Source: a virus (taxonomy: Duplodnaviria; Caudoviricetes). From it: a stretch of 63,684 nt of DNA. The stretch covers positions 1 through 63,684 of IMG/VR virus record IMGVR_UViG_3300038315_001014, one strand, 5' to 3'. Of this stretch, positions 1 to 63,684 are shown one piece after another. Numbering within the stretch: the first letter of the stretch is position 1; each line of letters opens with the position of its first letter. Position numbers and translations under genes: made by a program. Under the pieces are notes generated by a model. The model saw only the letters and a program-made list of their open reading frames with translations. It did no database searches and was not told the origin of the DNA.

Positions 1-130
1 CTCTTCAGCAGCAATTGCATCTAATCTGGCTTGCTCTTCAGCATCTAATATGGCTTGCGCTTCCTCTTCAGCAGCAATTGCATCTAATCTGGCTTGCTCT
101 TCAGCATCTAATATGGCTTGCTCTTCAGCT
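1..130. repeat. Tandem repeat shared with the window end (63518-63684)
   Basis: CTCTTCAGCAGCAATTGCATCTAATCTGGCTTG... units occur at both ends; the window ends and begins with CTCTTCAG. Confidence 0.9.
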
Positions 131-25213: not shown

Positions 25214-25345
25214 GATACCAGTTCCTTATGAAGCGTTGAGTGTATGGTGCCCTCGATACCAGTTCCTTATGAAGCGTTGAGTGTATGGTGCCCTCGATAC
25301 CAGTTCCTTATGAAGCGTTGAGTGTATGGTGCCCTCGATACCAGT
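25214..25345. repeat. 41-bp perfect tandem repeat x3 plus a partial copy
   Basis: GATACCAGTTCCTTATGAAGCGTTGAGTGTATGGTGCCCTC at 25214, 25255 and 25296; GATACCAGT at 25337. Confidence 0.95.
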
Positions 25346-41905: not shown

Positions 41906-42151
41906 ATGAAGACTGAACTTATGGGAATGGTTCGGCTGAAGATATTGAGGGCTGGCAGCGTCGGTAAGCTCGCTGATACCACGTCTATAGACAGGGCGTA
42001 TCTGTCAAGGCTGGCACGAGGGCTGAAGGAGAATCCAAGCGAGAGAGTCTTGGACGAACTTGGGATTGAACGGGTATCGTACTATGTTTGGAAAGACCCA
42101 AAAGACGAACCCCAAACCGAAGAGGAATGCTGGCTTTTATTGGAGGACTAA
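41906..42151 (+). CDS. XRE/Cro-like HTH protein
   Basis: SVGKLADTTSIDRAYLSRLARG...PS..VL..LG. Confidence 0.75.
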   Translation: MKTELMGMVRLKILRAGSVGKLADTTSIDRAYLSRLARGLKENPSERVLDELGIERVSYYVWKDPKDEPQTEEECWLLLED

Positions 42152-42185
42152 AATGAGCGAGTTCTTCACGAATTGGAGTACTAAT

Positions 42186-42440
42186 ATGCCTTACGTAAAT
42201 AAACCTAGACCATATAAAAAGGAATACCAACAGCAGAAAGCAAGAGGGGAACACAAAAACCGGATGGAACGACAGCGTGCTAGACGCGATTACGATAAGC
42301 GCGGGGTCAACCGCAAAGGTAAAGATATTCACCACAACAAAGCTTTGAGCAAAGGTGGGTCTAACAAAGATGGCACAAGACTTCAAAGCCCAAGCAAAAA
42401 TAGAGCAAACAATACCCATAAAAAGAGGGAGCAAAGATGA
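42186..42440 (+). CDS. Small HNH endonuclease-like protein
   Basis: MPYVNKPRPYKKEY and KDIHH..ALSKGGSN...NRA.N. Confidence 0.75.
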   Translation: MPYVNKPRPYKKEYQQQKARGEHKNRMERQRARRDYDKRGVNRKGKDIHHNKALSKGGSNKDGTRLQSPSKNRANNTHKKREQR

Positions 42441-42649
42441 AAGATGCTAAAATTCTTGCGGCCATAAACAAGGAACATAAAGCAACGATGACCAGCGAAG
42501 GCTAGCTTTTATTGGGGGATTAAAATGAGCGAGTTCTTCACGAATTTGGAAACGATGGACAGTGTATTTTATGTAGGGTACACCCTCCTTATCGTACTAT
42601 GTGTGGTACTTATCGCTAATAGGGAAAAGTGTAAGAAGGAGGAAAAGTA

Positions 42650-42790
42650 ATGCCTTCAAGTACAGAAAAGCAACGCAAATTCATGGGTGCAGAGTTAGCC
42701 AGAAAACGTAAAGGCAAGAAAACAAAAACTAAAATGTCTGCAAAGCAACTAAGTGATTTCGCTAAGAAGAAAAAGAAGAAAACAAGATAA
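42650..42790 (+). CDS. Small very basic protein (46 aa, DUF3008-like)
   Basis: MPSSTEKQRKFMGAELARKRKG...MSAKQLSDFA; AGGAGG RBS. Confidence 0.65.
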   Translation: MPSSTEKQRKFMGAELARKRKGKKTKTKMSAKQLSDFAKKKKKKTR

Positions 42791-42791
42791 T

Positions 42792-42866
42792 TGCAGAGTG
42801 GAGAAGTGGTATCTAGTTGGACTCATAATCTGAAGGTCGAGGGTTCAAATCCCTCCTCTGCTACCA
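42792..42866 (+). tRNA. tRNA with CAT anticodon (Met/fMet-like)
   Basis: GCAGAG/CTCTGC acceptor with a 1:72 mismatch, CT-CAT-AA loop, GAGGG-TTCAAAT-CCCTC T arm and encoded CCA. Confidence 0.85.
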
Positions 42867-42918
42867 ATTTACCAGGAAAACCGTTGCCTGCTTAAAGTAC
42901 GGTACTAGGAGAACGACA

Positions 42919-43341
42919 ATGACTGAAATGGTTATAATTTCTGAAGAGCAAGCAACGGCACTTACATCGTTAGGTGTTACTGTAAAGAAATGTTATGCAA
43001 TCCCTAAAACTTTAGTGAGCATATTTAGTTCATTAGGGAAAGGGACCACACGAGCAACACCAAAAAGGAGGAAAGCAACAAAAGGCCCTAGCGTTAAAGC
43101 TATGAAGCTCGGTCTTAACGCTGAGAAGTTAGCTGAAAAAATATCAGAAGCTAGTATTACTGGACTAGCTGTAAAAACTATTGTGGGTGAAATGGACCCT
43201 AAGTATGTCTACCGCAGAGAAACTTTAACCACGATGTTAAAAAATGTAGGGCTTACTGGTGGGCGTTTGCATTGGCCCCTAACTGAGTTAGTACATAGAG
43301 GAATTCTTGTAGCTGCTCCACGGCATTCTGCTACGCGATGA
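42919..43341 (+). CDS. Basic hypothetical protein (possible wHTH C-terminus)
   Basis: AGGAGAACG RBS; LTELVHRGIL. Confidence 0.6.
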   Translation: MTEMVIISEEQATALTSLGVTVKKCYAIPKTLVSIFSSLGKGTTRATPKRRKATKGPSVKAMKLGLNAEKLAEKISEASITGLAVKTIVGEMDPKYVYRRETLTTMLKNVGLTGGRLHWPLTELVHRGILVAAPRHSATR

Positions 43342-43357
43342 CACTTAAGCTACTTTT

Positions 43358-43716
43358 GGTAGGTGGGGCGAGGCGTGGTGATGTAAGGTAAGGAACGGCT
43401 AGGTGTGGTAAGGCAGGTAAGGTTAGGTAAGGTTAGGTAAGTTCAGGTGGGGTGTGGTTGGGTAAGGCAGGTTTGGTATGGTTCGGTTTGGTGCGGTAGT
43501 ATGGGGTCGGGTATGGTCAGGTTGGGTAAGGCAGGTTTGGTATGGTTCAGTTTGGTGGGGTCAGGTGGGGTCGGGTATGGTCAGGTTGGGTAAGGCAGGT
43601 AAGGTTAGGTAAGTTCAGGTGGGGTCGGGCCGGGTACGGTCGGGTAAGTTGCGGCATGGTGAGGCAGGTAGGGTAGGGTAAGGTTAGGCGTGGTGATGTA
43701 TGGTGAGGTAAGGTTT
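43358..43716 (+). ncRNA. GGY-NN pentamer array with 6 units; putative multi-guide RNA
   Basis: 67 pentamers in strict 5-nt register. Units begin at GGTA (43358) and GGCA (43412, 43466, 43530, 43594, 43663). The repeat is certain; the RNA function is inferred. Confidence 0.75.
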
Positions 43717-43744
43717 TAATTTTAATTTTAATTTTAATTTTAAT
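43713..43744 (+). repeat. (TTTTAA)5 tract between the array and the RBS
   Basis: Seen directly; followed by CAGGAG RBS and ATG at 43757. Confidence 0.9.
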
Positions 43745-43756
43745 CAGGAGAGCAAC

Positions 43757-44386
43757 ATGAGTGTTCAAACAGAAAGTAATGTAGTTGTACTAAATAAACT
43801 AAATATTATAAAAGCACCAGTAATACTAATTGGTGATTCCCCTATTTTAATGCATAAGTGGTCAGACAAAGCAAAGAAAGAAATGCTTGATAAACAAATG
43901 GGGAAAAATACGAAGCAACGAGGGAAGAAAAATCCAGAGCAAGACTACAAAGAATCTATGCATAAATGTAGCGATGGACCTACAAAATATGGATTTCCCG
44001 CTAATGGAGTTAAGGCATGTGCCTGTCGTGGAGCTAAAGAAGTTGCTGGCCTTGATATGACTAAAGCACGCACCAGTTTTCATGTATTAGGAGAGTTAGT
44101 TCCTATTTATGGATCTCCAGAAATGCATGAGTCTATGGTACGAATTGCGCAAACAACTGACATTCGGTACCGTGGAATTTTTAATGAATGGGCAACTAGG
44201 TTTACTGTACGATTTAATGCTGACATCATTACATATGACCAGATTGTAAATATTTTTGAATATGGTGGTTTTGGTTGTGGCATAGGTGAGTGGCGACCAG
44301 CACGAAATGGTACTATGGGTATGTTTCATGTTGGTACTGAAGAAGAACTTACCTACTATATTAATAAGTATGGGGAGAAAGAATAA
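43757..44386 (+). CDS. Stand-alone Cas7/RAMP-like RNA-binding protein
   Basis: ILIGDSPILMH (beta1), YGFPANGVKAC (compare RAMP IPGSSLKG) and a C-terminal Gly-rich loop GGFGCGIGEWRPARNGTMGMF. Confidence 0.7.
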   Translation: MSVQTESNVVVLNKLNIIKAPVILIGDSPILMHKWSDKAKKEMLDKQMGKNTKQRGKKNPEQDYKESMHKCSDGPTKYGFPANGVKACACRGAKEVAGLDMTKARTSFHVLGELVPIYGSPEMHESMVRIAQTTDIRYRGIFNEWATRFTVRFNADIITYDQIVNIFEYGGFGCGIGEWRPARNGTMGMFHVGTEEELTYYINKYGEKE

Positions 44387-44847
44387 TGATTTATAAGTTT
44401 AAGAGTAGTACAAGGCCAACAGAAGAGTCTCAGCAGGTAGGTGAGACTCTTCTACAAATAAAAAAAGACCAGGATGTTTTACACGCATGTGAAGTTGTAG
44501 CACAAGCAAAAGAAAAAGATTCGGTACTACATAAATACTTTCAGTGGGACGATACTTTAGCAGCGGAGCAGCACCGACTTAACCAAGCAAGACACTTAAT
44601 TACCTCTGTAGAAATTGTTAGGGAAACTGGGGATAATCGTTCAATTACTATACCTGCGTATACACATTTACGTGTAGATAAACACGGGTACAGAGACACA
44701 GAAGAAGTGTATTCAGTTCAAGATCTACGTAGTTCTTTAGTTACGCAACTAAAAATAGACTGGGAAACACTAAAGAAAAAACATGATTCTGTACTACAAG
44801 AAATAGCTTCTTTTGAATCGTTTAACTCGGAAGTTACAAACCTATGA
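44386..44847 (+). CDS. Hypothetical partner protein of the RAMP-like gene
   Basis: TAATG coupling; SVLHKYFQWDD..AA.QHRL.QARHLI motif. Confidence 0.7.
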   Translation: MIYKFKSSTRPTEESQQVGETLLQIKKDQDVLHACEVVAQAKEKDSVLHKYFQWDDTLAAEQHRLNQARHLITSVEIVRETGDNRSITIPAYTHLRVDKHGYRDTEEVYSVQDLRSSLVTQLKIDWETLKKKHDSVLQEIASFESFNSEVTNL

Positions 44848-44893
44848 ACCTCATAACAGTGGATAGCCCTGAATATTGACAGTGAAGCGCCTT

Positions 44894-46429
44894 ATGGAAA
44901 TAATTCAAAATAAAGCACTACTAATCACGCTAAAAGACCCCCTACCTGTACTAAATGCCATACCAAAAAGTAAACAGGTAGGAGATAAAACACTTGTTTA
45001 CTGGGGCATAGATGAAGTACATAAGCTAAAGGAGCTTGGAGTAGACGCACCCTCTCCTATGGAACGAAAGTATCTTTGGACGCAGTGTATGATGACTCCC
45101 TTTGAACATCAAATCAAAACTGCTGCGTTCCTCACCCTATACAAACGCGCCTTCTGTTTTAACGAGCAAGGTACAGGGAAAACTGCCAGTGCAATATGGG
45201 CAAGCGATTATTTAATGAGCCTAGGAATTATTCATCGTGTACTAGTTATCTGCCCTTTGTCCATTATGGACACTGCATGGCGAGCAGAAATGTTTGACTG
45301 TGCTATGCACCGTACTGTAGATATAGCTTACGGCAGTGCAAAAAAACGTGCCACTATCATAGCAGGCAGTGCAGAGTACGTGATAATAAACTATGACGGA
45401 GTTAAGGTAGTTCATGATGAAATTAAGAAGGGGGGCTTCGATCTAATTATCGCTGACGAAGCGACTCACTATAAGAACGCAAATACTTCCCGTTGGAAGA
45501 AACTCCACAAGTTAATTACCGAAGATACTTGGGTATGGATGATGACAGGTACCCCAGCGGCGCAAAGTCCGTTGGATGCCTATGGGTTAGCTAAAATCAT
45601 TAACCCTACTGCTGTACCAAAGTGGTTCGGTTCGTTCCGTGACCTAGTAATGTTCAGGGTGAGTCAGTTTAGGTGGCTTCCGAAAGATAGCGCAACCACT
45701 ACGGTTCATCGTGTGCTGCAACCTGCTATCCGTTTTACAAAAGAAGAATGCTTAGACCTACCTGACATGGTTTACTTAACCCGCGATGTTGAGTTAACCC
45801 CACAACAGAAAAAATACTACGACGACCTAAAGAAACGAATGATCACAATAGCGGCAGGAGAGAGAATCACAGCTGTCAACGCAGCTAACATGATGAACAA
45901 ACTTCTGCAAATATCCTCCGGTGCAGTATACTCAGACGATAGTGAATCCATAGCATTTGACGTTTCGAACAGATATTCTGTTCTAAAAGAAGTCATTGAC
46001 GAGTCCAGTCACAAAGTGCTTATATTCGTTGCTTACCGGCATACAATACGAGTTGTAGCAGAAAAACTTAAAGCAGACAGTATCACAGGAGAAATAATAC
46101 AAGGCGATGTCTCAGTAACAGAACGCACTCGCATAATAAAAGCATTTCAGGAGAACCCAGACCCAAGAGTACTCATCCTTCAGCCCGCCGCCGCTGCCCA
46201 CGGTGTAACTCTCACAGCAGCAAATACTATAGTGTGGTGGAGTCCAATAAGTTCGTTAGAAACTTATTTACAGGCGAACGCTAGGGTCCACCGGGCAGGG
46301 CAGGTAAATAAGTGCAGCGTGATTCATCTACAAGGCTCTGCTATGGAACGTCACGTTTATGGACTATTGCGTAACAAAATAGACATCCATACAAAAATCA
46401 TTGAACTATACCAAGATTTGATAAAATAG
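44894..46429 (+). CDS. SNF2-family superfamily 2 helicase
   Basis: EQGTGKT, IINYD, ADEAT, MTGTP, HGVTLT and QANARVHRAGQ. Confidence 0.92.
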   Translation: MEIIQNKALLITLKDPLPVLNAIPKSKQVGDKTLVYWGIDEVHKLKELGVDAPSPMERKYLWTQCMMTPFEHQIKTAAFLTLYKRAFCFNEQGTGKTASAIWASDYLMSLGIIHRVLVICPLSIMDTAWRAEMFDCAMHRTVDIAYGSAKKRATIIAGSAEYVIINYDGVKVVHDEIKKGGFDLIIADEATHYKNANTSRWKKLHKLITEDTWVWMMTGTPAAQSPLDAYGLAKIINPTAVPKWFGSFRDLVMFRVSQFRWLPKDSATTTVHRVLQPAIRFTKEECLDLPDMVYLTRDVELTPQQKKYYDDLKKRMITIAAGERITAVNAANMMNKLLQISSGAVYSDDSESIAFDVSNRYSVLKEVIDESSHKVLIFVAYRHTIRVVAEKLKADSITGEIIQGDVSVTERTRIIKAFQENPDPRVLILQPAAAAHGVTLTAANTIVWWSPISSLETYLQANARVHRAGQVNKCSVIHLQGSAMERHVYGLLRNKIDIHTKIIELYQDLIK

Positions 46430-51401: not shown

Positions 51402-54400
51402 TTAGTCATCAAAAGCCCCCCACGTAGCATCAGCTTGTTCACTAGCATATCTCATCAATGGACTAAACTGCACTCCCCCTTCCATCTGAGAAGATGTTTT
51501 GTGGTGTCGCTTCATTGATCTGATAATTGTTGATAGCGGGATAAGCTCCCCCCCTATTCTAGACAGATGCCTTTCATTGAATTCTACTATCTCATCAAGT
51601 ATTTCCTGAAATTCAGCGTAGTCCATAAACCGATAGGCTACGTACAGGCGTTTTGTTAGCCTCTCACGCATAGTGGATATTGCGGTGCTGACCTTTTTCT
51701 TAGAGCGGTTCTTTTCTTGCTGGAACGTATACTGCGCCGGGGAGAAGCCCATCCCTTGCCAGAACATATCATTCGCATCTAGCCCATCTACAATAATGTC
51801 ACCTCTACGAGTGAGCGGAGCACCATCATGTATGTACCGAAAAGCTTTCATTACATTACGTAATGCTGTTGGGGCCATAGTTTCTAGGGCACGTTCAACT
51901 TCACGTGGGGTATTTGCTTCTAACAAGTCCTCACGCCCGCGATTGATCTCTGATACTACACTACCAAAAGGACCAGTAGCATACCGTGCTAACTGGTCCC
52001 CAAGGGTTAGATTTTCTGTAAAAGGATTTGTTCTATATAGCAGCCCCGACAAACCTACACGCTGTGCTACGTCTGCACCTGACCCGTAATTTATCACACC
52101 TTTATACAGGGGTTCCCCCATATGCAAACGTACTATGGTTTCGAAATCTTCCTCATCATCTTCAAGGAACATAAGATTAGCTAGCGCAGATACAATAGCG
52201 AAAAACGGAAGGCCCTGGACACCAGATAAAATTAACGTAGATCCCAAAACCCCTAAAAATTGCTTAGTAGCTTCGTGTCGGTTTTTTTCTCCAGCTATCT
52301 GTTGTTTAATTGCTGTCTTAGCTGTTCTAAGTAGGTAATGGTACATAGTAGCGCCAAAAGGTTTATACATAAGCGCAACTCTCAACGCTCCTTTACGTGC
52401 CGCACTTGCTACCAAATTACGATTAGTCCCGCCGTTATACTCCTCTGTTTTCTGTAGTGCCTCTAATGCAATCTCTTCATACTCTGCTTTTGTAAGTTCT
52501 TTCTTGGTTACGTACTCTACTCCGTTACGAACTTCTTTTACTGTTCTTCTCTTATCTATCTCTAGCATATAAGCAGACATCATGGTTATTTGGCGAGTGT
52601 ACTTTTCGAAATGATGGAACATAAACGCAGACCACTTACTAATTTTACTTGACCATCCCTCTCGCTTACCTGCCTCGCCCAAATCCATTGATTCAAAAGC
52701 TGCAGACTGTCCTAGCATCGCACGTTTAGCTGCAGCGTCTATCAAGATGAGTAACTTATATTCTGTCAAAATTTCAGTAGTAGTCTCCCCTAACTCTCTA
52801 AGTTCTTTCTCCCCAATAAGCGTACTCTTTGTAAAAACTTCTTCACGTAGCTCCTGCTCTCCCTTTTTGTTTACTACTACGTAATTCCCTATGTTTAGCG
52901 CTGCTTTAGAAAATACTGTGCTCTCATCACCGTAATCAGCCGCCAGTTTTATCTCTGTTCCCCACCCGCTATTGGCAAACACCTTGTTCGCTTTGTGTAT
53001 CATCTTAATAGCTTCTACATGTCCATACCTAGCAGCAAGGGCAGGATACACAATAAGCGCTAGCTGAGTCAGATTAACCATTGCTGAGGATGGGTTGAAT
53101 CCAATCGTCCATAAAAAAGCTATTCTAGTAGCTATTGTAGCCAACTGATCTTTCGGCGGTGATGCAGCAAAGTGGGCCTCACTTATCATCTGCTCAATTA
53201 ATTCTACGTTTTTGGTGTCGTTCTTTTCTAGCGCCTCTTTTAACTCCCCTTTTTTAACATCCGCTACCTTGTACAATTCCTCTGCATACTTAAGCTGCTC
53301 TACCTGAAAACGCATAGAATGAGCACGCTCCTCAAACACCTCAAATAGGTTCTCTTCAAATCCAAGAATATTCTTCCGCTTTTGTAGCCCCTTAACAAAG
53401 GAAGCTTCTGGTAAAAGATCAATGAATATCTCCATGATATCTGCTTTTACCATAGCCCTTGCAGTTTTAGCAGTTTTATCCTTCTCTGGATCAACATCAG
53501 GCGCGGCGTTATTCATTCTTGTAAATATCTGGTTAATGAAAGAGGCAGTGGGCGCGTCTCTGTACACCACAGACTTATTAACAATAGACCTATGCACTGC
53601 GCCTAAAAGATCTAACGCCTCATCTCTAGTAGTCGCTTTGTTTCCTTTATCTTCAAGTTTGCGGGTTATCTCAATCGCTGAGTACTTTTCCCTAAGCTCA
53701 GGACGTATAACATTCTGTATGAACGTCTCTCTAGCCTCTGGAGACTGGAGATGCTCTACTGCAAGTTCCCCGTTGAAATCAAAAGTAACTCTGTAATCTC
53801 CCTTCCTTGCAAGCGGTAAGTATCCGTCTATCTTATTCTTGAACAACATGCTCATCACTCTGTTCTTTACTTCTTTTGCCCCCTCTACATCGTCCCCCAT
53901 TACAAAATCTATCCGCTTGAAAACTACGTTCTTCATATCGTCGTATATGATTTCATATGCATCAATAATATGTTTCAGTGTCTTCTTTGCGCCGGGACCA
54001 GCTTTTGCCAACTCCTTCGTTAGTTCCCCATGTATTTTTAGTTTGGCCCCTTCATAAGCTGAAGCAGGTTTTGTTACGTCCACTTCGGCTAAAGTACCTT
54101 TGTTACCAACTTCAATTAACGTTTCTATTTGTGCTGCACTACGCTTTCTTAGCCACTCATTATTTTTTACTATCGACCCCGATACGCTATCATGCCCACT
54201 CCTTATCGCTGCGTTCATAAAGTGAATTAATTCTTCTCCCCTATTGGGATCTTTAAGCTTCGCGTCCTCTGCGAACTTAGCATCATTACGTACCCCTGCA
54301 GTAGCAAAGAAGCCTTTTTTAGCTAGCGTACTCAATTTTCTAAATGTCGTAGCCAGTCTTATTTTTTCCGTAAGTAGCCGCCCGCCTTTATCAAGTGCCT

Positions 54401-57400
54401 TAGTAAACCTTTTCCGTCCTTCGTAGTACGCATCGTATAACTCTACTGTAGTTGCAGCTGCATACAATTGTCCTGCGTCACGATACTGCGGTGCAGGGGA
54501 AAGCATAGCGTTAGTGAGGTCGTCCACTCTATCCAACACAGTGGGCTTTGTCTTAGGGGGCCTACCTACCAATCTACGCATACCGTTCATAACAATACGA
54601 GAAAACCATTCCAGCGCATTACGTACCGGACCTTTGGATAACGTTATAGATGCCAGTGCTTGTCTAAACTCTATGTTACTAGATGCTTCAGTCACAAACT
54701 CATGTACTGATTGCGACCCGTAATACGTCCCTAAATTATCCTTAACAGCTTCATACAAGGCAGTGAGCTGCTTAGCCTCCCTCGACTCCCCAGTAGCTAA
54801 ATCATGAGAAGTGAACGCATGCATCGTTTCGTGCATTAACACATGCGTATTAACCCCAAACTCAGCGTCAAGCTGTATCGTGTTCGTCTTAGGATCAAAT
54901 AGTCCAGCTACGTGCTCACCCCTCTCGTTAATAAGCTTATCCACCACCTCCAATTTTGTGTCAGTAAGTGTAGCAGCGAGCTTTTTAGCAAGAGTTCTTA
55001 GCCGCCCACTCATACTTGTATGGGCAATATTTGTTAGTGCACTTCCTAGATCCCCATTATGTACATACTGAGTAGTCAGGGGATGCAACGGATGATCAAG
55101 GGCAGAAACTTCACTCAATGTTAAGTTAAGTTGAACGTTATCCGAAATATCCTCAACTGTAGTCTCACCTATCCCTAACTCACTCTGAACATCCTGAACT
55201 GTAGTCTCCTTTATCCCCACTTCAACCTTATCACCAACGAAGATCTTCTCAAGCTCAGCTTCTTGCTCTTCTGCAGGCGCAGCTTCTTCCTGTGCCCCTC
55301 TCTTAGCGCGTACATCTGCTTTCTTTAGCTGCTTCTTCGCTAGTGCTGTACCCTTAGTTTCTGCTTTGGCTTTCTTCGCTTCAGCTTTGGCTTTCTTCGC
55401 CTCGGCTTTTGCTTCAGCCTCAGCTTTGGCTTCAGCCGTAGCTGCCCTCCTAGCTTTCGCTCTGGCTTTAGTTTCTGCTTTCTGCCTACTTAGAGCACCT
55501 CCTTCAATTGTACCAACAGTACTCTTCGCAAGTTCTATTTTTGTCTTCAATATTATTCGCGCCTCGGCAGATAAATTTTCTTTTATCCATTTTCTAGCTT
55601 GCTTAAGTTGTTCCTGTTTAAGCCCTTTATAAAAAGCTTGAACCTCAGCAGGATTCCCCTGGTTAAGTTCGTTTGCAACTTTAAATATAGAGTGGTAGCC
55701 TAGCAAAGATATATTATCTATCAGCCGAGGGAGCTTGCTAAATACTACCTGTGCACTTGAAGCATTTGTAGAAGTTTCCGATCTGTATCCTTTCTTAGTT
55801 TTGTTAGTAAGTAATGTTTTTTCTTTAGTGTTTAACAAAGCAAGTATTTTTACTTTATCACCTAAAGGCAAATCAATCTTCTTATTCTCTACCGCAAACA
55901 CCAACCCTTTAGTCTTTCGTAGCATGTCCATAATTTTTTTAGCTACGCCGCCAGCATGTTTTGTACCCCACATTGCTTGTATAAACGCATCTATTTCCGC
56001 ATGAGAAATGCGTCTGTCTTTAGCTTCTGCTCTCGCATTTACTTCCCTTACAAGCGCATCCAGTGCAGTATCCCCAGTAACTCCCTCAACTGCGGAAACT
56101 AACTCATTGTTCTTAAGCGCTGCAAATTTCTTCCTTGCTGCTTCTTGCTCCGCAGTCGTAGCTACTTGCTCAGGTGCAACAGTCGTAGCAGTCCTACTAC
56201 GCTCAGCTTCTTGTGCTCTATTCGCTGCGCGTACTCCAGCCCTACGTGCCTTCTCCTTCACTGCTTCTGCAAGAAACTTCTTTACATTCTCACGGTACTT
56301 TTTCTGCTTAGTCCTACTATAGTTAACATGCTCATCAAAATTTGCAGGCGTAACTCCCCACTCTGCTAAATCGTATGCATATTCTTGCGCACCCTTCATA
56401 CCTGGTGCTCTCAATAACGCAGTCTGTACTTCTCCTGCTACTACAGACGTAACTTTTGGTTTAGGCTTTACTTCTACTTTTGGTTTTATTCCTCGATCTA
56501 TAACTTCAACGCCCCCTCCATCTACTAGCGCTCTTACCTGCTCAATAGTACCATCCATCCCAGTGAGCCACTCTAAGACACGGGGGAAATTTTCTTTTGG
56601 TGTAGCGTTAATCTTCTCAGCGAGTTCCTTTTTTAGCTCGTTCGCTTTTGTTAATGCCCCTACCCTTGTTCTGGATTCAATTTTATTTTGTAGCGAAGTG
56701 TAGTCTGATCTAGTTTCAGATACTTCTACTTTACGTTTAGCAGCTTTCGCATGCTCTATACTTGCTCTAAGTTGGCCCAGCGTTTTTTGCAGTACTACGC
56801 TATTACTGCCTTCTGTGGGGTAAGCTCTAACTTTACTACTACCAACACTAACTAAGTTATACAATTTTTCTGATAAATCCTCTCTAAACTTTTGCCCTCT
56901 ACTAATATGTGTGTCCAAATAGTTCATTAAGTCTTCTGCAGGTATCGCTGCTTCTGCACGGTCTAATTCTGCCAACAGTCCATTTTGATTTTCATAATGG
57001 AACTGAGCTTTGTGTGACATTTTTGTTAGCTTTTTATCGCTAGTCGCCGTATATGAATCCAATTCAGGATCTTTTTTCTTCCTTACAGCTCCTCCCACTG
57101 CTGGCGCTTCAACAACCTCAATACCGCTTAAGATCTCTGCAATGTTGGCACCTTCACCTACAAGTTCGCCATCAGCGTCATGTCCTTCAACTGCTTCTCC
57201 ATCTGTTATTCTGTAATTTACTCCTTTGAACTCAATCTCCCCCTCAGCTTCTAGGTCACTTTGGGCTTCTTCAATTTCGTCCAACGTAGGAGCTGCTATC
57301 TCTTGCTTTCCTGTAAGTATCTTTTCGTCAGCTATAAACGCATCTGAAACTTCGGGTGGGGTTTTTTGCGCCTCTTTTTTACTGAAGTCAAGTTCCAGTT

Positions 57401-58907
57401 GGTCTTCTGATACTTCCTCAGCTACCTCCTCAACAGCAGCCTCACTTTCAAGAGAACCTAGACGTTTGCGCTTACGGTTCCTACCAAGCCCTGGAAGTCC
57501 TATTTGTTGTTCTGGCTGTGGCTGCAACGGTGCTCGTTCTTTTGGTTCAGTAACAGGTGCAGAAGCTGCCGCTCTAGCTTCCTTTGCTTTTTGTCTAAGT
57601 TTTTCTTGTGCAGTTGCTCTAACTTTTTCACTTGTTGTGTTTCTTAGTAGCCATTTAAGTGCACTGATCTTTTTAGTTTCTGCTTCCTCTTTTGTTCTTT
57701 TTTTCTTCGCTTCTTTTGCGGCTGCTTTTTGTCGTTTTTCTTCCGCAGCTTCTTGCCCAGCTATAGATCGTTTACGTTGTTCTTCTTTTTCTGCAAGTTG
57801 CTGATCTTCTTCTATCTGCATTTGCCGTAATTCTTCTTCGTCTAGCATATACTCAGCAGCTTCAAGCTCTTGTGCCTGACGGGTTTCTTGCACTATATCT
57901 TGCCGTAATTCTTCTTCGTCTAGCATATACTCAGCAGCTTCATCTCGCTCATCCTCTCGTCTTTTTACATCTTGTGCTGCTACAACTCTATCGACTTTAG
58001 CTTTTTTCCTTCGCTCCCCTTCTGTTGCCCGCTCTTCTTTAAGTGTAGCGTAACGTCTTGCACGTGTTCGCCTAGTGATAACTTCCATAACTGCCTGTAC
58101 AAAACCACCAACACCCCCACCATAACCAACAGCTTCCCCCCAACCTTCATAAGTTTCTTGGTCTGGGTTGTACCCTTGCTCAATGGAGTTCTGTAACACT
58201 GCAGCAACAAATTCTTGCGCTCCTTCTGCCCCCGCCTGGGTAAGGATACGCGCCCCAGTACTAACAACCTCCCTTGCCTTAGTTTTGCCAAACATCTTAA
58301 GCCAAGCAGCGGGTAACAACTTAAGTGATCCAACTGGGATTATTTCTGTTAGTCCAACCGCCGCACCTTTTAGTGCCGCTAAACCACGTTCCTCTTCTGA
58401 AGCCCCTTCTTCTCTTGCACGTTCACTCGCTTCACCTGCACCAGCACCTACACCTAACGCAGCAGAACCAAGTATGCCCGCTATCCCCGCACCAGGAATA
58501 AGGGCAGGAGCGGCCACACCAAGAAAGGAACCAAGTGCTTCAGAGAACTTTCTAGGAACCATCCAACGTAGCCCACGATCAGCAGCTAAATACTCCTGCA
58601 TAGGTTCAAAAGCTCCCATAATACCTTCCCGCACAGGAGCTTCGTACTTTTCTGATAGCATAGTGGCACCACCAAGCAACCCAGACTCGATCCTGCTCGC
58701 AGCACCAGAGGCGATACCTTTAGGGACTTCCTGTAAATAATCTAAAACAGAGGGGTCGGGATGGAGTAACTCAGAGAGTTTTTGAAATTCTTGTATCCTA
58801 TGCTGGCGATTAGCAAGTCTAACTAATTCTTTTTTCGACGCATTAGCAGGAGCTTCTACCTTTATAGAAGCCCCCGACCTACGATCTGTTACGGTATGTA
58901 TAGGCAT
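51402..58907 (-). CDS. Giant internal virion/ejection protein (polyvalent type) with zincin metallopeptidase and PLxRFG-like regions
   Basis: 2501 aa; Gly/Ala membrane-like N-terminus, K/E/A coiled coils, GLFDP...LMHETMH...HEFVTE and YLPLARKGDY. Confidence 0.75.
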   Translation of the reverse strand: MPIHTVTDRRSGASIKVEAPANASKKELVRLANRQHRIQEFQKLSELLHPDPSVLDYLQEVPKGIASGAASRIESGLLGGATMLSEKYEAPVREGIMGAFEPMQEYLAADRGLRWMVPRKFSEALGSFLGVAAPALIPGAGIAGILGSAALGVGAGAGEASERAREEGASEEERGLAALKGAAVGLTEIIPVGSLKLLPAAWLKMFGKTKAREVVSTGARILTQAGAEGAQEFVAAVLQNSIEQGYNPDQETYEGWGEAVGYGGGVGGFVQAVMEVITRRTRARRYATLKEERATEGERRKKAKVDRVVAAQDVKRREDERDEAAEYMLDEEELRQDIVQETRQAQELEAAEYMLDEEELRQMQIEEDQQLAEKEEQRKRSIAGQEAAEEKRQKAAAKEAKKKRTKEEAETKKISALKWLLRNTTSEKVRATAQEKLRQKAKEARAAASAPVTEPKERAPLQPQPEQQIGLPGLGRNRKRKRLGSLESEAAVEEVAEEVSEDQLELDFSKKEAQKTPPEVSDAFIADEKILTGKQEIAAPTLDEIEEAQSDLEAEGEIEFKGVNYRITDGEAVEGHDADGELVGEGANIAEILSGIEVVEAPAVGGAVRKKKDPELDSYTATSDKKLTKMSHKAQFHYENQNGLLAELDRAEAAIPAEDLMNYLDTHISRGQKFREDLSEKLYNLVSVGSSKVRAYPTEGSNSVVLQKTLGQLRASIEHAKAAKRKVEVSETRSDYTSLQNKIESRTRVGALTKANELKKELAEKINATPKENFPRVLEWLTGMDGTIEQVRALVDGGGVEVIDRGIKPKVEVKPKPKVTSVVAGEVQTALLRAPGMKGAQEYAYDLAEWGVTPANFDEHVNYSRTKQKKYRENVKKFLAEAVKEKARRAGVRAANRAQEAERSRTATTVAPEQVATTAEQEAARKKFAALKNNELVSAVEGVTGDTALDALVREVNARAEAKDRRISHAEIDAFIQAMWGTKHAGGVAKKIMDMLRKTKGLVFAVENKKIDLPLGDKVKILALLNTKEKTLLTNKTKKGYRSETSTNASSAQVVFSKLPRLIDNISLLGYHSIFKVANELNQGNPAEVQAFYKGLKQEQLKQARKWIKENLSAEARIILKTKIELAKSTVGTIEGGALSRQKAETKARAKARRAATAEAKAEAEAKAEAKKAKAEAKKAKAETKGTALAKKQLKKADVRAKRGAQEEAAPAEEQEAELEKIFVGDKVEVGIKETTVQDVQSELGIGETTVEDISDNVQLNLTLSEVSALDHPLHPLTTQYVHNGDLGSALTNIAHTSMSGRLRTLAKKLAATLTDTKLEVVDKLINERGEHVAGLFDPKTNTIQLDAEFGVNTHVLMHETMHAFTSHDLATGESREAKQLTALYEAVKDNLGTYYGSQSVHEFVTEASSNIEFRQALASITLSKGPVRNALEWFSRIVMNGMRRLVGRPPKTKPTVLDRVDDLTNAMLSPAPQYRDAGQLYAAATTVELYDAYYEGRKRFTKALDKGGRLLTEKIRLATTFRKLSTLAKKGFFATAGVRNDAKFAEDAKLKDPNRGEELIHFMNAAIRSGHDSVSGSIVKNNEWLRKRSAAQIETLIEVGNKGTLAEVDVTKPASAYEGAKLKIHGELTKELAKAGPGAKKTLKHIIDAYEIIYDDMKNVVFKRIDFVMGDDVEGAKEVKNRVMSMLFKNKIDGYLPLARKGDYRVTFDFNGELAVEHLQSPEARETFIQNVIRPELREKYSAIEITRKLEDKGNKATTRDEALDLLGAVHRSIVNKSVVYRDAPTASFINQIFTRMNNAAPDVDPEKDKTAKTARAMVKADIMEIFIDLLPEASFVKGLQKRKNILGFEENLFEVFEERAHSMRFQVEQLKYAEELYKVADVKKGELKEALEKNDTKNVELIEQMISEAHFAASPPKDQLATIATRIAFLWTIGFNPSSAMVNLTQLALIVYPALAARYGHVEAIKMIHKANKVFANSGWGTEIKLAADYGDESTVFSKAALNIGNYVVVNKKGEQELREEVFTKSTLIGEKELRELGETTTEILTEYKLLILIDAAAKRAMLGQSAAFESMDLGEAGKREGWSSKISKWSAFMFHHFEKYTRQITMMSAYMLEIDKRRTVKEVRNGVEYVTKKELTKAEYEEIALEALQKTEEYNGGTNRNLVASAARKGALRVALMYKPFGATMYHYLLRTAKTAIKQQIAGEKNRHEATKQFLGVLGSTLILSGVQGLPFFAIVSALANLMFLEDDEEDFETIVRLHMGEPLYKGVINYGSGADVAQRVGLSGLLYRTNPFTENLTLGDQLARYATGPFGSVVSEINRGREDLLEANTPREVERALETMAPTALRNVMKAFRYIHDGAPLTRRGDIIVDGLDANDMFWQGMGFSPAQYTFQQEKNRSKKKVSTAISTMRERLTKRLYVAYRFMDYAEFQEILDEIVEFNERHLSRIGGELIPLSTIIRSMKRHHKTSSQMEGGVQFSPLMRYASEQADATWGAFDD

Positions 58908-62714: not shown

Positions 62715-63684
62715 TACCCTATACCTTTTAATATCTGAAGTAGCCTATTTAGATCCCCCGCTTCCCCACTTGCTATTTTGCCATATGGATCTAGAAACAA
62801 ATTTTCCTGCCCTAACGTACCAAATATATCCTGCATCCCCACAAGTGAATCTCCTGTTTCCTCAGTAGAGGAAGTTAAAGGCATAGGTGCTAGTGTAATC
62901 CCATAGGGATCTGTAAACTTACTTTTTTGCTCAGGAGTAGCAAACTCACTAGCCCCAAAACCCATATCATATAAATACTCTAGCTCCCCCCCTGGTGAAG
63001 ATTCAGTAATAACATTCTGTTGTTGGGGAGTCAGCGCTTGTAAAAACTGAAACCACGGTCCTATGTTTGGGCGACCACCTCCGGTTCCAGTTCCAGTCCC
63101 AGTTCCAGTTCCAGTTCCAGTCCCCGTTCCAGTTCCAGTTCCAGTTCCAGTTCCACCAGTTCCAGTTCCACCAGTTCCAGTTCCAGTTCCAGTCCCACCA
63201 GTCCCAGTTCCAGTTCCAGTCCCACCAGTCCCAGTTCCAGTTCCAGTTCCAGTTCCAGTTCCAGTTCCAGTTCCAGTTCCAGTCCCACCAGTTCCAGTTC
63301 CAGTTCCAGTTCCACCAGTTCCAGTTCCACCAGTTCCAGTTCCAGTTCCACCAGTTCCAGTTCCAGTTCCAGTTCCACCAGTTCCAGTTCCACCAGTTCC
63401 AGTTCCAGTTCCAGTCCCACCAGTTCCAGTTCCAGTTCCAGTTCCAGTTCCAGTTCCAGTTCCAGTTCCACCAGTTCCAGTTCCAGTTCCACCAGTTCCA
63501 GTTCCAGTTCCAGTTCCAGCAGCAATTGCATCTAATATGGCTTGCGCTTCCTCTTCAGCAGCAATTGCATCTAATCTGGCTTGCTCTTCAGCATCTAATA
63601 TGGCTTGCGCTACATCTCCAGCTACAATTGCATCTAATCTGGCTTGCTCTTCAGCATCTAATATGGCTTGCGCTTCCTCTTCAG
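62714..63684 (-). CDS. C-terminal part of the origin-spanning gene, including a ~145-residue Gly-Thr tract
   Basis: The frame ...[13 protein letters not shown]...[14 protein letters not shown]...[10 protein letters not shown] is continuous with ORF 62714..62965. Confidence 0.8.
63083..63520. repeat. CCAGTT hexamer microsatellite (GGAACT on the coding strand)
   Basis: About 440 bp with in-frame variants. Confidence 0.95.

What the first reader, a model, noticed from the sequence alone, without database searches (positions are those of the whole stretch)
43358..43716. Array grammar: six units of 4+5n nt punctuated by GGCA
AGGCAGG occurs at 43411, 43465, 43529, 43593 and 43662, with spacings 54, 64, 64 and 69 (all 5n+4). 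NN strings are: U1 GG GA GT GA AA AA AC TA GT AA; U2 AA TA AA TA AA CA GG GT TG AA; U3 TT AT TC TT GC AG GG CG AT CA TG AA; U4 TT AT TC TT GG CA GG CG AT CA TG AA; U5 AA TA AA CA GG CG CG AC CG AA GC AT GA; U6 AG AG AA TA GT GA AT GA AA TT. The register survives even where the triplet is degenerate (TGT, GTT, TAT, AGT, GGA). Constant positions 1-3 with free positions 4-5 is unlike a decaying microsatellite. The register break is a plausible processing or filament boundary.
Basis: seen in the sequence. Interest (0 to 1): 0.9.

Follow-up and report, generated by a model that had tools for sequence, protein, structure and literature searches.

The report
Phage VIPR guide-RNA repeat array
This stretch is the guide-RNA array of a VIPR system, a recently described phage-borne relative of CRISPR in which two free bases in every five-base repeat spell out the DNA target, so it is real and functional-looking but already explained by 2026 preprints.

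Summary
Window 43362-43711 holds 66 pentamers of the form GGY-NN. Five 4-nt GGCA tokens split them into six units of 10, 10, 12, 12, 13 and 9 pentamers.

The same grammar sits beside homologues of the downstream gene in 45 of 60 IMG/VR loci and in 3 GenBank phages. It is always G-rich on the gene's strand.

A literature search found two 2026 bioRxiv preprints on VIPR systems. These consist of a small RAMP protein (Vipr), an accessory gene (vap), and vrRNAs of 9-16 YNNGG repeats whose NN bases pair with DNA under a 1-nt-skip rule.

The 209-aa gene at 43757-44386 meets the Vipr tests:
- It has a Cas7/Csm3-like fold.
- Its family profile hits the solved SUSP1 Vipr at E 2.6e-11.
- The GGY-contacting residues are conserved.

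The 5n+4 spacing matches the preprint's "staggered arrays" with 1-nt overlap.

Verdict: a new member of a known kind, in an uncultured marine phage. RNA ends and natural targets remain untested. No target turned up in 1.9 Mb of related phage DNA.

The parts
   Evidence: token parse
43412..43415 (+). 4-nt GGCA register break 1
43416..43465 (+). vrRNA unit 2, 10 pentamers
43466..43469 (+). GGCA break 2
43470..43529 (+). vrRNA unit 3, 12 pentamers; near-duplicate of unit 4 (90% identical)
43530..43533 (+). GGCA break 3
43534..43593 (+). vrRNA unit 4, 12 pentamers
43594..43597 (+). GGCA break 4
43598..43662 (+). vrRNA unit 5, 13 pentamers
43663..43666 (+). GGCA break 5
43667..43711 (+). vrRNA unit 6, 9 pentamers; not closed by a GGCA break and runs into the AT-rich repeat
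43714..43744 (+). (TTTTAA)x5 spacer between the array and the ribosome-binding site of vipr; conserved in the nearest relative L002 although that array's NN bases differ; role unknown
43757..44386 (+). vipr, 209 aa, RAMP (Cas7-like) protein predicted to bind one pentamer per protomer
44386..44847 (+). vap-like accessory gene, 153 aa (phrog_15946); function unknown
42441..44875 (+). accessory insertion between two backbone replication genes (42060-42440 and the SNF2 helicase at 44876). It carries small ORFs, tRNA-Met (42792-42866), a 140-aa ORF (42919-43341), the array, vipr and vap

Best explanation
The array is the guide-RNA (vrRNA) array of a VIPR system (Viral Interference Programmable Repeat) carried by an uncultured marine tailed phage.

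Inferred mechanism, by homology to the SUSP1 system of the preprints:
- The array is transcribed on the + strand together with vipr and vap.
- Vipr protomers bind one pentamer each. They sequester G1, G2 and Y3 and present N4 and N5.
- The NN dinucleotides of a unit (9-13 here) pair with a double-stranded DNA target in which every third base is skipped.
- Binding silences genes of a competing phage, satellite or prophage.

The 4-nt GGCA token shifts the register by one base. Each unit therefore becomes a separate guide, which is the 'staggered array' architecture, with no 3' tail hairpin and no ribozyme between guides.

Shown here: the grammar, its conservation, the strand bias, the Vipr fold and homology, the conserved GGY-contact residues, the conserved vipr-vap-array cassette, and the cassette's accessory, mobile nature.

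Inferred only: transcription, processing at the breaks, ribonucleoprotein formation, DNA targeting, and the identity of the targets.
For: 1. Grammar. The window has 66 pentamers and 5 GGCA breaks, with entropies 0.38/0.38/0.55/1.92/1.81 bits. Across 48 unique arrays there are 1739 pentamers and 202 four-nt tokens, of which 169 are GGCA. Entropies there are 0.22/0.61/1.16/1.90/1.96 bits, G at position 3 occurs in only 0.3%, and units are most often 9-11 pentamers long.

2. Linkage. Arrays occur in 45 of 60 IMG/VR loci fetched with the 209-aa protein and in 3 of 3 GenBank loci screened at that stage. All 61 of 61 arrays are G-rich on the strand of the vipr homologue. By my count of the table, a vap homologue lies beside vipr in 55 of 64 loci.

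3. Protein. The AlphaFold2 model has pLDDT 85.7 and pTM 0.80. Its top Foldseek PDB hits are Csm3/Cas7, Cas7-11, type VII Cas7 and Cmr4, with best E 1.1e-6 and 63 hits at E<=1e-3. The family profile hits one PDB sequence significantly, 'SUSP1 Vipr protein' 36pp_D, at E 2.6e-11. The single window protein hits it at E 2.1e-8.

4. Contact residues. The second preprint names H17, R138, D177, W178 and R179 as the G1, G2 and Y3 contacts in SUSP1. They align to window H33, R139, E178, W179 and R180. These are invariant or >=90% conserved in the 35-sequence alignment.

5. Link to type II. The felixounavirus tootiki homologue scores hhalign probability 97.9. It is flanked by GGY-NN tracts followed by hairpin tails.

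6. Literature. The preprints describe vrRNAs of 9-16 YNNGG repeats, the 1-nt skip rule, seven types and staggered arrays with 1-nt overlap.

7. Structure. The array RNA has no stable fold of its own: z = +1.03, and 87 of 100 shuffles fold at least as well. No Rfam family, hammerhead included, matches 42800-44000 apart from the tRNA.

8. Accessory nature. In 35 of 35 related loci that hold both backbone genes, the gap between them is 20-456 nt, against 2435 nt in the window. Only 2 of 56 relatives fetched with the prim-pol protein carry vipr, and both carry it at a different site.
Against: No direct evidence exists for this locus. No RNA run was listed, so transcription and RNA ends were not seen.

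No sigma-70-like promoter lies near the array in 42400-45000.

No DNA target was found. The best 1-nt-skip matches are no better than the 0-, 2- or 3-nt-skip controls or shuffled-order controls. This holds in the window itself, in 0.54 Mb of loci and in 1.92 Mb of loci.

The vap-like protein has no significant structural match (best E 0.64). It is not detectably similar to the vap of the type II felixounavirus (E 0.64). Its role and the VIPR type are therefore open.

Unit 6 lacks a closing GGCA. Unit 1 has degenerate pentamers.

The staggered architecture is not listed among those confirmed by small-RNA sequencing in the preprint's main text.
Confidence: 0.9

Rival explanations
1. The array is a replication origin or iteron array: G-rich repeats, possibly forming an R-loop, next to an AT-rich unwinding element inside the replication module.
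For: The array lies among polA, an SNF2 helicase and prim-pol genes. It is followed by (TTTTAA)x5. Its strand bias would suit R-loop formation.
Against: The array travels with vipr and vap, not with the replication genes. In 35 of 35 relatives that span the junction there is no insertion at this site, and in L146 and L175 the cassette sits elsewhere. A 5-nt register with a 1-nt slip is not a double-helix periodicity. AT-rich runs do not consistently follow the arrays of other loci.
Confidence: 0.03
2. The array is a protein-binding RNA or single-stranded DNA platform for something other than DNA targeting, for example a sponge or a TRAP-like regulatory wrap that controls translation of the downstream gene.
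For: A 5-nt period with a conserved triplet and a free dinucleotide resembles TRAP binding sites (recalled knowledge). The array ends just upstream of the vipr ribosome-binding site.
Against: In relatives the arrays lie before vipr, between vipr and vap, or after vap, so a fixed 5'-UTR role does not fit. The neighbouring protein is a homologue of a solved guide-binding Vipr and keeps its GGY-contact residues.
Confidence: 0.04
3. The array is a decaying or selfishly expanding pentanucleotide satellite with no function, and the GGCA recurrence is only a by-product of duplicating a 64-nt higher-order unit.
For: Units 3 and 4 are near-duplicates, and TRF reports a 64-nt period. Units 2 and 5, and units 1 and 6, share runs of pentamers.
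Against: The GGCA break recurs in 169 of 202 four-nt tokens in unrelated arrays of differing GC content. GGY is held constant while NN is close to 2 bits. Linkage to vipr and the strand bias hold across distant phages.
Confidence: 0.02
4. The array is a protein-coding repeat, with a 15-nt period giving a 5-aa repeat.
For: Short ORFs of 44-48 aa cross the array.
Against: Stop codons occur in all frames, and the ORFs overlap each other in different frames. The 4-nt breaks change the frame. In GenBank relatives the arrays overlap only 'hypothetical protein' calls.
Confidence: 0.01

Closest known systems
VIPR systems with 'staggered' vrRNA arrays (bioRxiv 10.64898/2026.04.26.720920, fig. S18 legend; main text, named sections and figure legends read; figures and supplements not visible)
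   Same: GGY-NN pentamer guides follow one another directly, and adjacent guides overlap by 1 nt, which gives 5n+4 spacing. A vipr gene and a small accessory gene lie next to the array, and the system is phage-borne.
   Different: I cannot tell which of the seven types this locus belongs to. The words 'GGCA' and 'SNF2' do not occur in the main text. The strong GGCA consensus of the break (169 of 202 tokens) and the weaker A-rich bias of the flanking pentamers may or may not be shown in the supplements.
Type II VIPR of Escherichia phage SUSP1 and relatives (same preprint; structures in bioRxiv 10.64898/2026.04.26.720927; PDB 36pp)
   Same: The Vipr proteins are homologous (E 2.6e-11). The H, R and (D/E)-W-R contacts to GGY are conserved. 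Guides have 9-16 repeats.
   Different: Type II guides are separate ~100-nt RNAs, each capped by a ~40-nt tail with a pseudoknot. Here there is no tail and no stable structure. The vap genes are not detectably related.
Class 1 CRISPR-Cas backbone (Cas7/Csm3 filament on crRNA)
   Same: The protein has a RAMP fold with a glycine-rich loop. One protomer binds per fixed number of guide nucleotides, with periodic bases withheld from pairing.
   Different: The period is 5 nt with three bases sequestered and two pairing, not 6 nt with one flipped. There is no repeat-spacer array, no cas1/cas2 and no other cas gene. Neither vipr nor vap matches any PADLOC model.
TRAP (trp RNA-binding attenuation protein) binding sites: triplet repeats with 2-3-nt spacers (recalled, not tested)
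   Same: A conserved triplet plus a free spacer gives a period of about 5 nt, with one subunit per repeat.
   Different: TRAP spacers carry no information, and TRAP is a closed 11-mer ring that acts on its own leader RNA. No TRAP-like protein is present here.

Membership tests
VIPR system | Vipr protein: small (~20 kDa) RAMP fold with an RRM core, a glycine-rich loop and a thumb | tested here: met
   The protein is 209 aa. The model has pLDDT 85.7. Its best PDB matches are Csm3/Cas7-family chains, with E down to 1.1e-6 and TM 0.4-0.5. A glycine-rich loop at about 170-181 has invariant G171, G175 and G177.
VIPR system | Sequence homology to an experimentally characterised Vipr | tested here: met
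   The family profile matches PDB 36pp_D 'SUSP1 Vipr protein' at E 2.6e-11 over 178 profile positions. The single window protein matches at E 2.1e-8. The felixounavirus tootiki_14 protein scores hhalign probability 97.9.
VIPR system | Residues that read G1, G2 and Y3 (SUSP1 H17, R138, D177, W178, R179) | tested here: met
   They align to window H33, R139, E178, W179 and R180. H33, R139 and R180 are invariant; E178 and W179 are >=90% conserved among 35 sequences. The alignment around K33, E71 and M72 is too weak to judge.
VIPR system | vrRNA of 9-16 YNNGG repeats with conserved GGY and hypervariable NN | tested here: met
   Units have 10, 10, 12, 12, 13 and 9 pentamers.
VIPR system | Accessory vap gene adjacent to vipr | tested here: met
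   A 153-aa gene overlaps the vipr stop codon. By my count of the table, its homologue lies beside vipr in 55 of 64 loci. Its function is not established, since the fold search found nothing significant.
VIPR system | vrRNAs are expressed and co-purify with Vipr | not testable with these tools
   No RNA holder was listed.
VIPR system | NN strings match natural DNA targets under the 1-nt-skip rule | tested here: inconclusive
   No match above the controls was found in the window, in 0.54 Mb of loci or in 1.92 Mb of loci. The absence of a self-target agrees with the preprint. No search of a whole collection was run.
VIPR, staggered-array architecture | Adjacent guides overlap by 1 nt with no tail or ribozyme between them | tested here: met
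   All five breaks are 4-nt tokens. There is no Rfam hammerhead and no stable fold. Processing at the breaks was not tested.
VIPR type II (SUSP1 clade) | Conserved ~40-nt 3' tail with a hairpin or pseudoknot after each repeat tract, and a vap1-type accessory gene | tested here: not met
   Units abut directly. The fold z-score is +1.03. The vap is unrelated to tootiki_15 (E 0.64).
CRISPR-Cas | Repeat-spacer array plus cas genes (an adaptation module and several effector subunits) | tested here: not met
   The parse of the array found only pentamers and 4-nt tokens, with no repeat-spacer structure. Only one RAMP gene is present. Neither vipr nor vap has any Pfam or PADLOC match.

The most novel reading that the evidence does not exclude
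In this clade the one-base register slip (GGCA in place of a pentamer) may itself be the whole delimiter of a guide. It would stop a Vipr filament that reads strictly in fives and so set guide length. It would also mark the processing site without any tail, pseudoknot or ribozyme. A single transcript would then be cut or partitioned into guides by phase alone, a punctuation mechanism with no counterpart in CRISPR repeats. The break is GGCA in 169 of 202 four-nt tokens, and breaks lie within 1-3 pentamers of both array ends in many arrays. Both facts are compatible with this reading. Nothing here tests it.
Probability: 0.35. Interest if true: 0.6.

Novelty: new member of a known kind. Interest (0 to 1): 0.35.

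Why it matters
VIPR is a very recently described RNA-guided DNA-recognition system, proposed to be older than CRISPR. This locus extends it to an uncultured marine phage of about 64 kb.

The locus also gives a clean natural example of the staggered, tail-less array, which is the architecture without published small-RNA confirmation in the main text I could read. Comparison across 48 arrays gives a consensus for the boundary (GGCA, flanked by A-rich NN). That consensus can be used to find and segment guides automatically.

The comparison shows too that the vipr-vap-array cassette is a mobile accessory module. It is inserted at different sites of an otherwise conserved replication backbone.

For the scan, the case shows that a reader working from raw sequence alone recovered the correct grammar of a real guide array.

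Tried and rejected
**Database searches with no useful hit**
- blastn of 42900-44900 against GenBank phages: no match.
- Rfam at E<=1 on 42800-44000: only the tRNA and one chance-level hit.
- Pfam and PADLOC: nothing for vipr, vap or the 140-aa ORF.

**Early hypotheses dropped once the cassette and the preprints were found**
- A TRAP-like ring platform.
- A replication origin or R-loop element.
- A Rho-loading site on the antisense RNA.
- A G-quadruplex.
- A run of Shine-Dalgarno-like motifs.

**Target searches by script, using the NN strings under 0-3-nt skip rules**
- No self-target: best 14-18 of 18-26 bases, the same for all skip rules.
- All-against-all of 134 units versus 0.54 Mb of loci: the mean best fraction is 0.76 for every rule, with 10 units at >=0.85 under skip 1 against 6, 7 and 3 under skips 0, 2 and 3. 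This is not convincing.
- Six window guides versus 1.92 Mb of loci, including 136 newly fetched relatives: no better than shuffled-order controls.
- A scan of the whole IMG/VR or metagenome collections was not run. It needs typed gapped patterns derived from the array, which I left out.

**RNA and read data**
- No RNA holder was listed.
- Laid contigs only show that assemblies break inside the array.

**Weak or confounded analyses**
- NN composition fits codon positions 1-2 of the sense strand best (+101.6 bits over background for 1739 NN). Antisense positions 2-3 come close (+78.9 bits), so the support is weak.
- Mismatch positions between similar units: 29 of 34 fall in NN. Only 2 of the 5 pairs are clearly homologous, and the fixed GGY inflates similarity, so the test is confounded.
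- Test of whether GGCA marks the 5' or the 3' end of guides: no asymmetry. Breaks lie within 2 tokens of the start in 18 of 48 arrays and within 2 tokens of the end in 15 of 48.

**Vap and SNF2**
- Vap fold search: no significant match. The low-ranking list contains several winged-helix regulators, all at E>0.6.
- The SNF2 helicase was considered as a vap and rejected, because it belongs to the conserved backbone.

Full report
**1. The observation**

The window is a complete virus record of 63,684 bp. Between the stop codon of a 140-aa ORF (42919-43341) and the gene that starts at 43757 lies a non-coding stretch. GGT recurs in it every 5 nt.

A dynamic-programming parse of 43362-43713 gives 66 pentamers and five 4-nt tokens, all GGCA. 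This yields six units of 10, 10, 12, 12, 13 and 9 pentamers.

Register-corrected entropies are 0.38, 0.38, 0.55, 1.92 and 1.81 bits. Without the correction the five phases are indistinguishable. Chains of GG at 5-nt steps reach 9 inside the array and 3 everywhere else in the window.

The motif AGGCAGG is not enriched in the window as a whole: 14 matches against 7.56 +/- 2.64 expected. What matters is its clustering and its 5n+4 spacing. Units 3 and 4 are near-duplicates, reported as a 64-nt period.

**2. The grammar is conserved next to one gene family**

The downstream 209-aa protein (phrog_4652, no Pfam family) was used to fetch 60 IMG/VR loci. Of these, 45 carry one or more arrays of the same kind. 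So do three GenBank phages: Gordonia phage UmaThurman, Mycobacterium phage Donkeykong and cyanophage Cy-LDV1.

All 61 arrays are G-rich on the strand of the gene.

The 48 unique arrays contain 1739 pentamers and 202 four-nt tokens, of which 169 are GGCA. Entropies are 0.22, 0.61, 1.16, 1.90 and 1.96 bits. Position 3 is C or T in 94% of pentamers and G in 0.3%. Runs between breaks are most often 9-11 pentamers.

Around the break, the flanking pentamers are biased to GGC-A-(A/T). The arrays lie before vipr, between vipr and the next gene, or after that gene.

The 15 IMG/VR loci without a called array include the two nearest relatives. Their contigs end inside or just before the array, and L002 starts within one.

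**3. What it is**

A full-text search for pentanucleotide repeats in phages returned a 2026 bioRxiv preprint. I read its abstract, Results, Discussion, three Methods sections and its figure legends through passages. A second search found a structural companion preprint. Of that one I read the abstract and two Results sections.

The preprints describe VIPR systems, which have three parts:
- Vipr, a RAMP protein of about 20 kDa.
- An accessory vap gene.
- vrRNAs of 9-16 YNNGG repeats.

One Vipr protomer binds one repeat. It sequesters G1, G2 and Y3 and presents N4 and N5. The NN bases then pair with double-stranded DNA while every third target base is skipped. Natural targets are competing phages, satellites and prophages, and the effect is transcriptional repression.

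Seven types are reported. Besides the tailed guides of type II, the preprint names staggered arrays with vrRNAs overlapping by 1 nt, hammerhead-interspersed arrays and single-guide systems. Only the last two are said to be confirmed by small-RNA sequencing.

**4. Membership tests**

- **Fold.** A model of the 209-aa protein, built from a 35-sequence alignment, has pLDDT 85.7 and pTM 0.80. Its best PDB matches are Csm3/Cas7, Cas7-11, type VII Cas7 and Cmr4, with E down to 1.1e-6 and 63 hits at E<=1e-3.
- **Sequence.** The family profile has a single significant PDB hit, 'SUSP1 Vipr protein' (36pp_D, E 2.6e-11). The window protein alone gives E 2.1e-8.
- **Contact residues.** The SUSP1 residues that read GGY are H17, R138, D177, W178 and R179. 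They align to H33, R139, E178, W179 and R180, which are invariant or >=90% conserved.
- **Type II relative.** A felixounavirus homologue (tootiki_14, hhalign probability 97.9) is flanked by GGY-NN tracts that end in hairpin tails. This is the type II layout.
- **Vap.** The next gene (44386-44847, phrog_15946) has a homologue beside vipr in 55 of 64 loci, by my count of the table. Its confident model (pLDDT 91.7) has no significant structural match. It is unrelated to the felixounavirus vap.
- **Architecture.** The array RNA has no stable structure (z = +1.03), and no ribozyme is found. The locus is therefore a VIPR system of the staggered, tail-less architecture and is not type II. The type could not be assigned because the figures and supplements were not available.

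**5. Genomic context**

The array sits in the replication module: polA, a PD-(D/E)XK nuclease, an SNF2 helicase and prim-pol. It is not part of that module, however.

Of the 56 relatives fetched with the prim-pol protein, 35 hold both the 42060-42440 homologue and the SNF2 gene. In those 35 the gap between the two genes is 20-456 nt, against 2435 nt in the window.

Only 2 of the 56 carry vipr (L146 and L175), and both carry it upstream of polA.

The window's extra 2.4 kb holds small ORFs, tRNA-Met, a 140-aa orphan ORF, the array, vipr and vap. This is the behaviour of a mobile accessory cassette, and it excludes the SNF2 helicase as a vap.

**6. What remains open**

- **RNA.** No RNA run was listed, so transcription and RNA ends are untested.
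- **Promoter.** No sigma-70-like promoter lies near the array.
- **Targets.** Script searches under the 1-nt-skip rule found no self-target, in line with the preprint's own control. They found no target in 0.54 Mb or 1.92 Mb of fetched phage DNA beyond what the 0-, 2- and 3-nt-skip and shuffled-order controls give. A scan of the whole collections was not run.
- **NN composition.** It fits codon positions 1-2 of the sense strand best. The margin over the next model is small.
- **Guide ends.** Whether GGCA marks the 5' or the 3' end of a guide cannot be told from the position of breaks in arrays.

**7. Verdict**

The element is a guide-RNA array of a known, very recently described kind, in a new marine phage member. 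Confidence in the assignment is 0.9. Novelty is limited to the new member, the quantified GGCA boundary consensus and the evidence that the cassette is mobile.

Noticed in passing
window 42441-44875: The VIPR cassette, together with tRNA-Met and an orphan 140-aa ORF, is an insertion between two backbone genes. In 35 of 35 related loci those two genes are 20-456 nt apart. In L146 and L175 vipr sits upstream of polA instead.
   Followed up: yes
window 43443-44782: One contig of a coded marine run (X6, depth 7.8) joins 43443 directly to 44782. It skips 1338 nt, which is most of the array, vipr and most of vap. This may be a natural deletion variant or an assembly artefact at the repeat. It is a single contig from the same study as the likely source sample.
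   Followed up: no
L062 5635-5951; L064 4502-4844; L063 5644-5822 and 6442-6580: In Gordonia phage UmaThurman and Mycobacterium phage Donkeykong the GGY-NN arrays coincide with annotated 'hypothetical protein' CDSs (gp40 and gp48). These CDS calls are probably wrong. In cyanophage Cy-LDV1 the arrays fall in unannotated gaps.
   Followed up: partly
L083 787-1314: A relative fetched with the large terminase (73% identity) carries a 528-nt array, with 97 GG-at-5-nt steps, on the same strand as a vipr homologue at 2466-1849.
   Followed up: no
window 43714-43744 and L002 46-80: The (TTTTAA)n run between the array and the vipr ribosome-binding site is conserved in the nearest relative, although that array's NN bases differ. 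Its role is unknown; it could be a spacer, a terminator-like T-run or a translation element.
   Followed up: partly
window 42792-42866: A tRNA-Met gene (anticodon CAT) lies on the + strand just upstream of the cassette.
   Followed up: no
window 1-126 and 63528-63674; 63080-63519: The two ends of the record share a 63-nt repeat family, which suggests a repeat-rich gene running across the record ends or terminal redundancy. About 80 copies of a TCCAGT hexamer lie inside the ORF at the right end.
   Followed up: no
window 25214-25345: A perfect 41-nt tandem repeat of 3.2 copies lies in the region where gene orientation switches.
   Followed up: no
window 51402-58907: A 2501-aa ORF lies on the minus strand. 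It was not analysed.
   Followed up: no
all arrays (48 unique): The NN dinucleotides are purine-rich at N4 (A 35%, G 32%) and A/T-leaning at N5. They fit codon positions 1-2 of sense strands slightly better than the other models. This is what the wobble-skip idea predicts, but the margin is small.
   Followed up: partly
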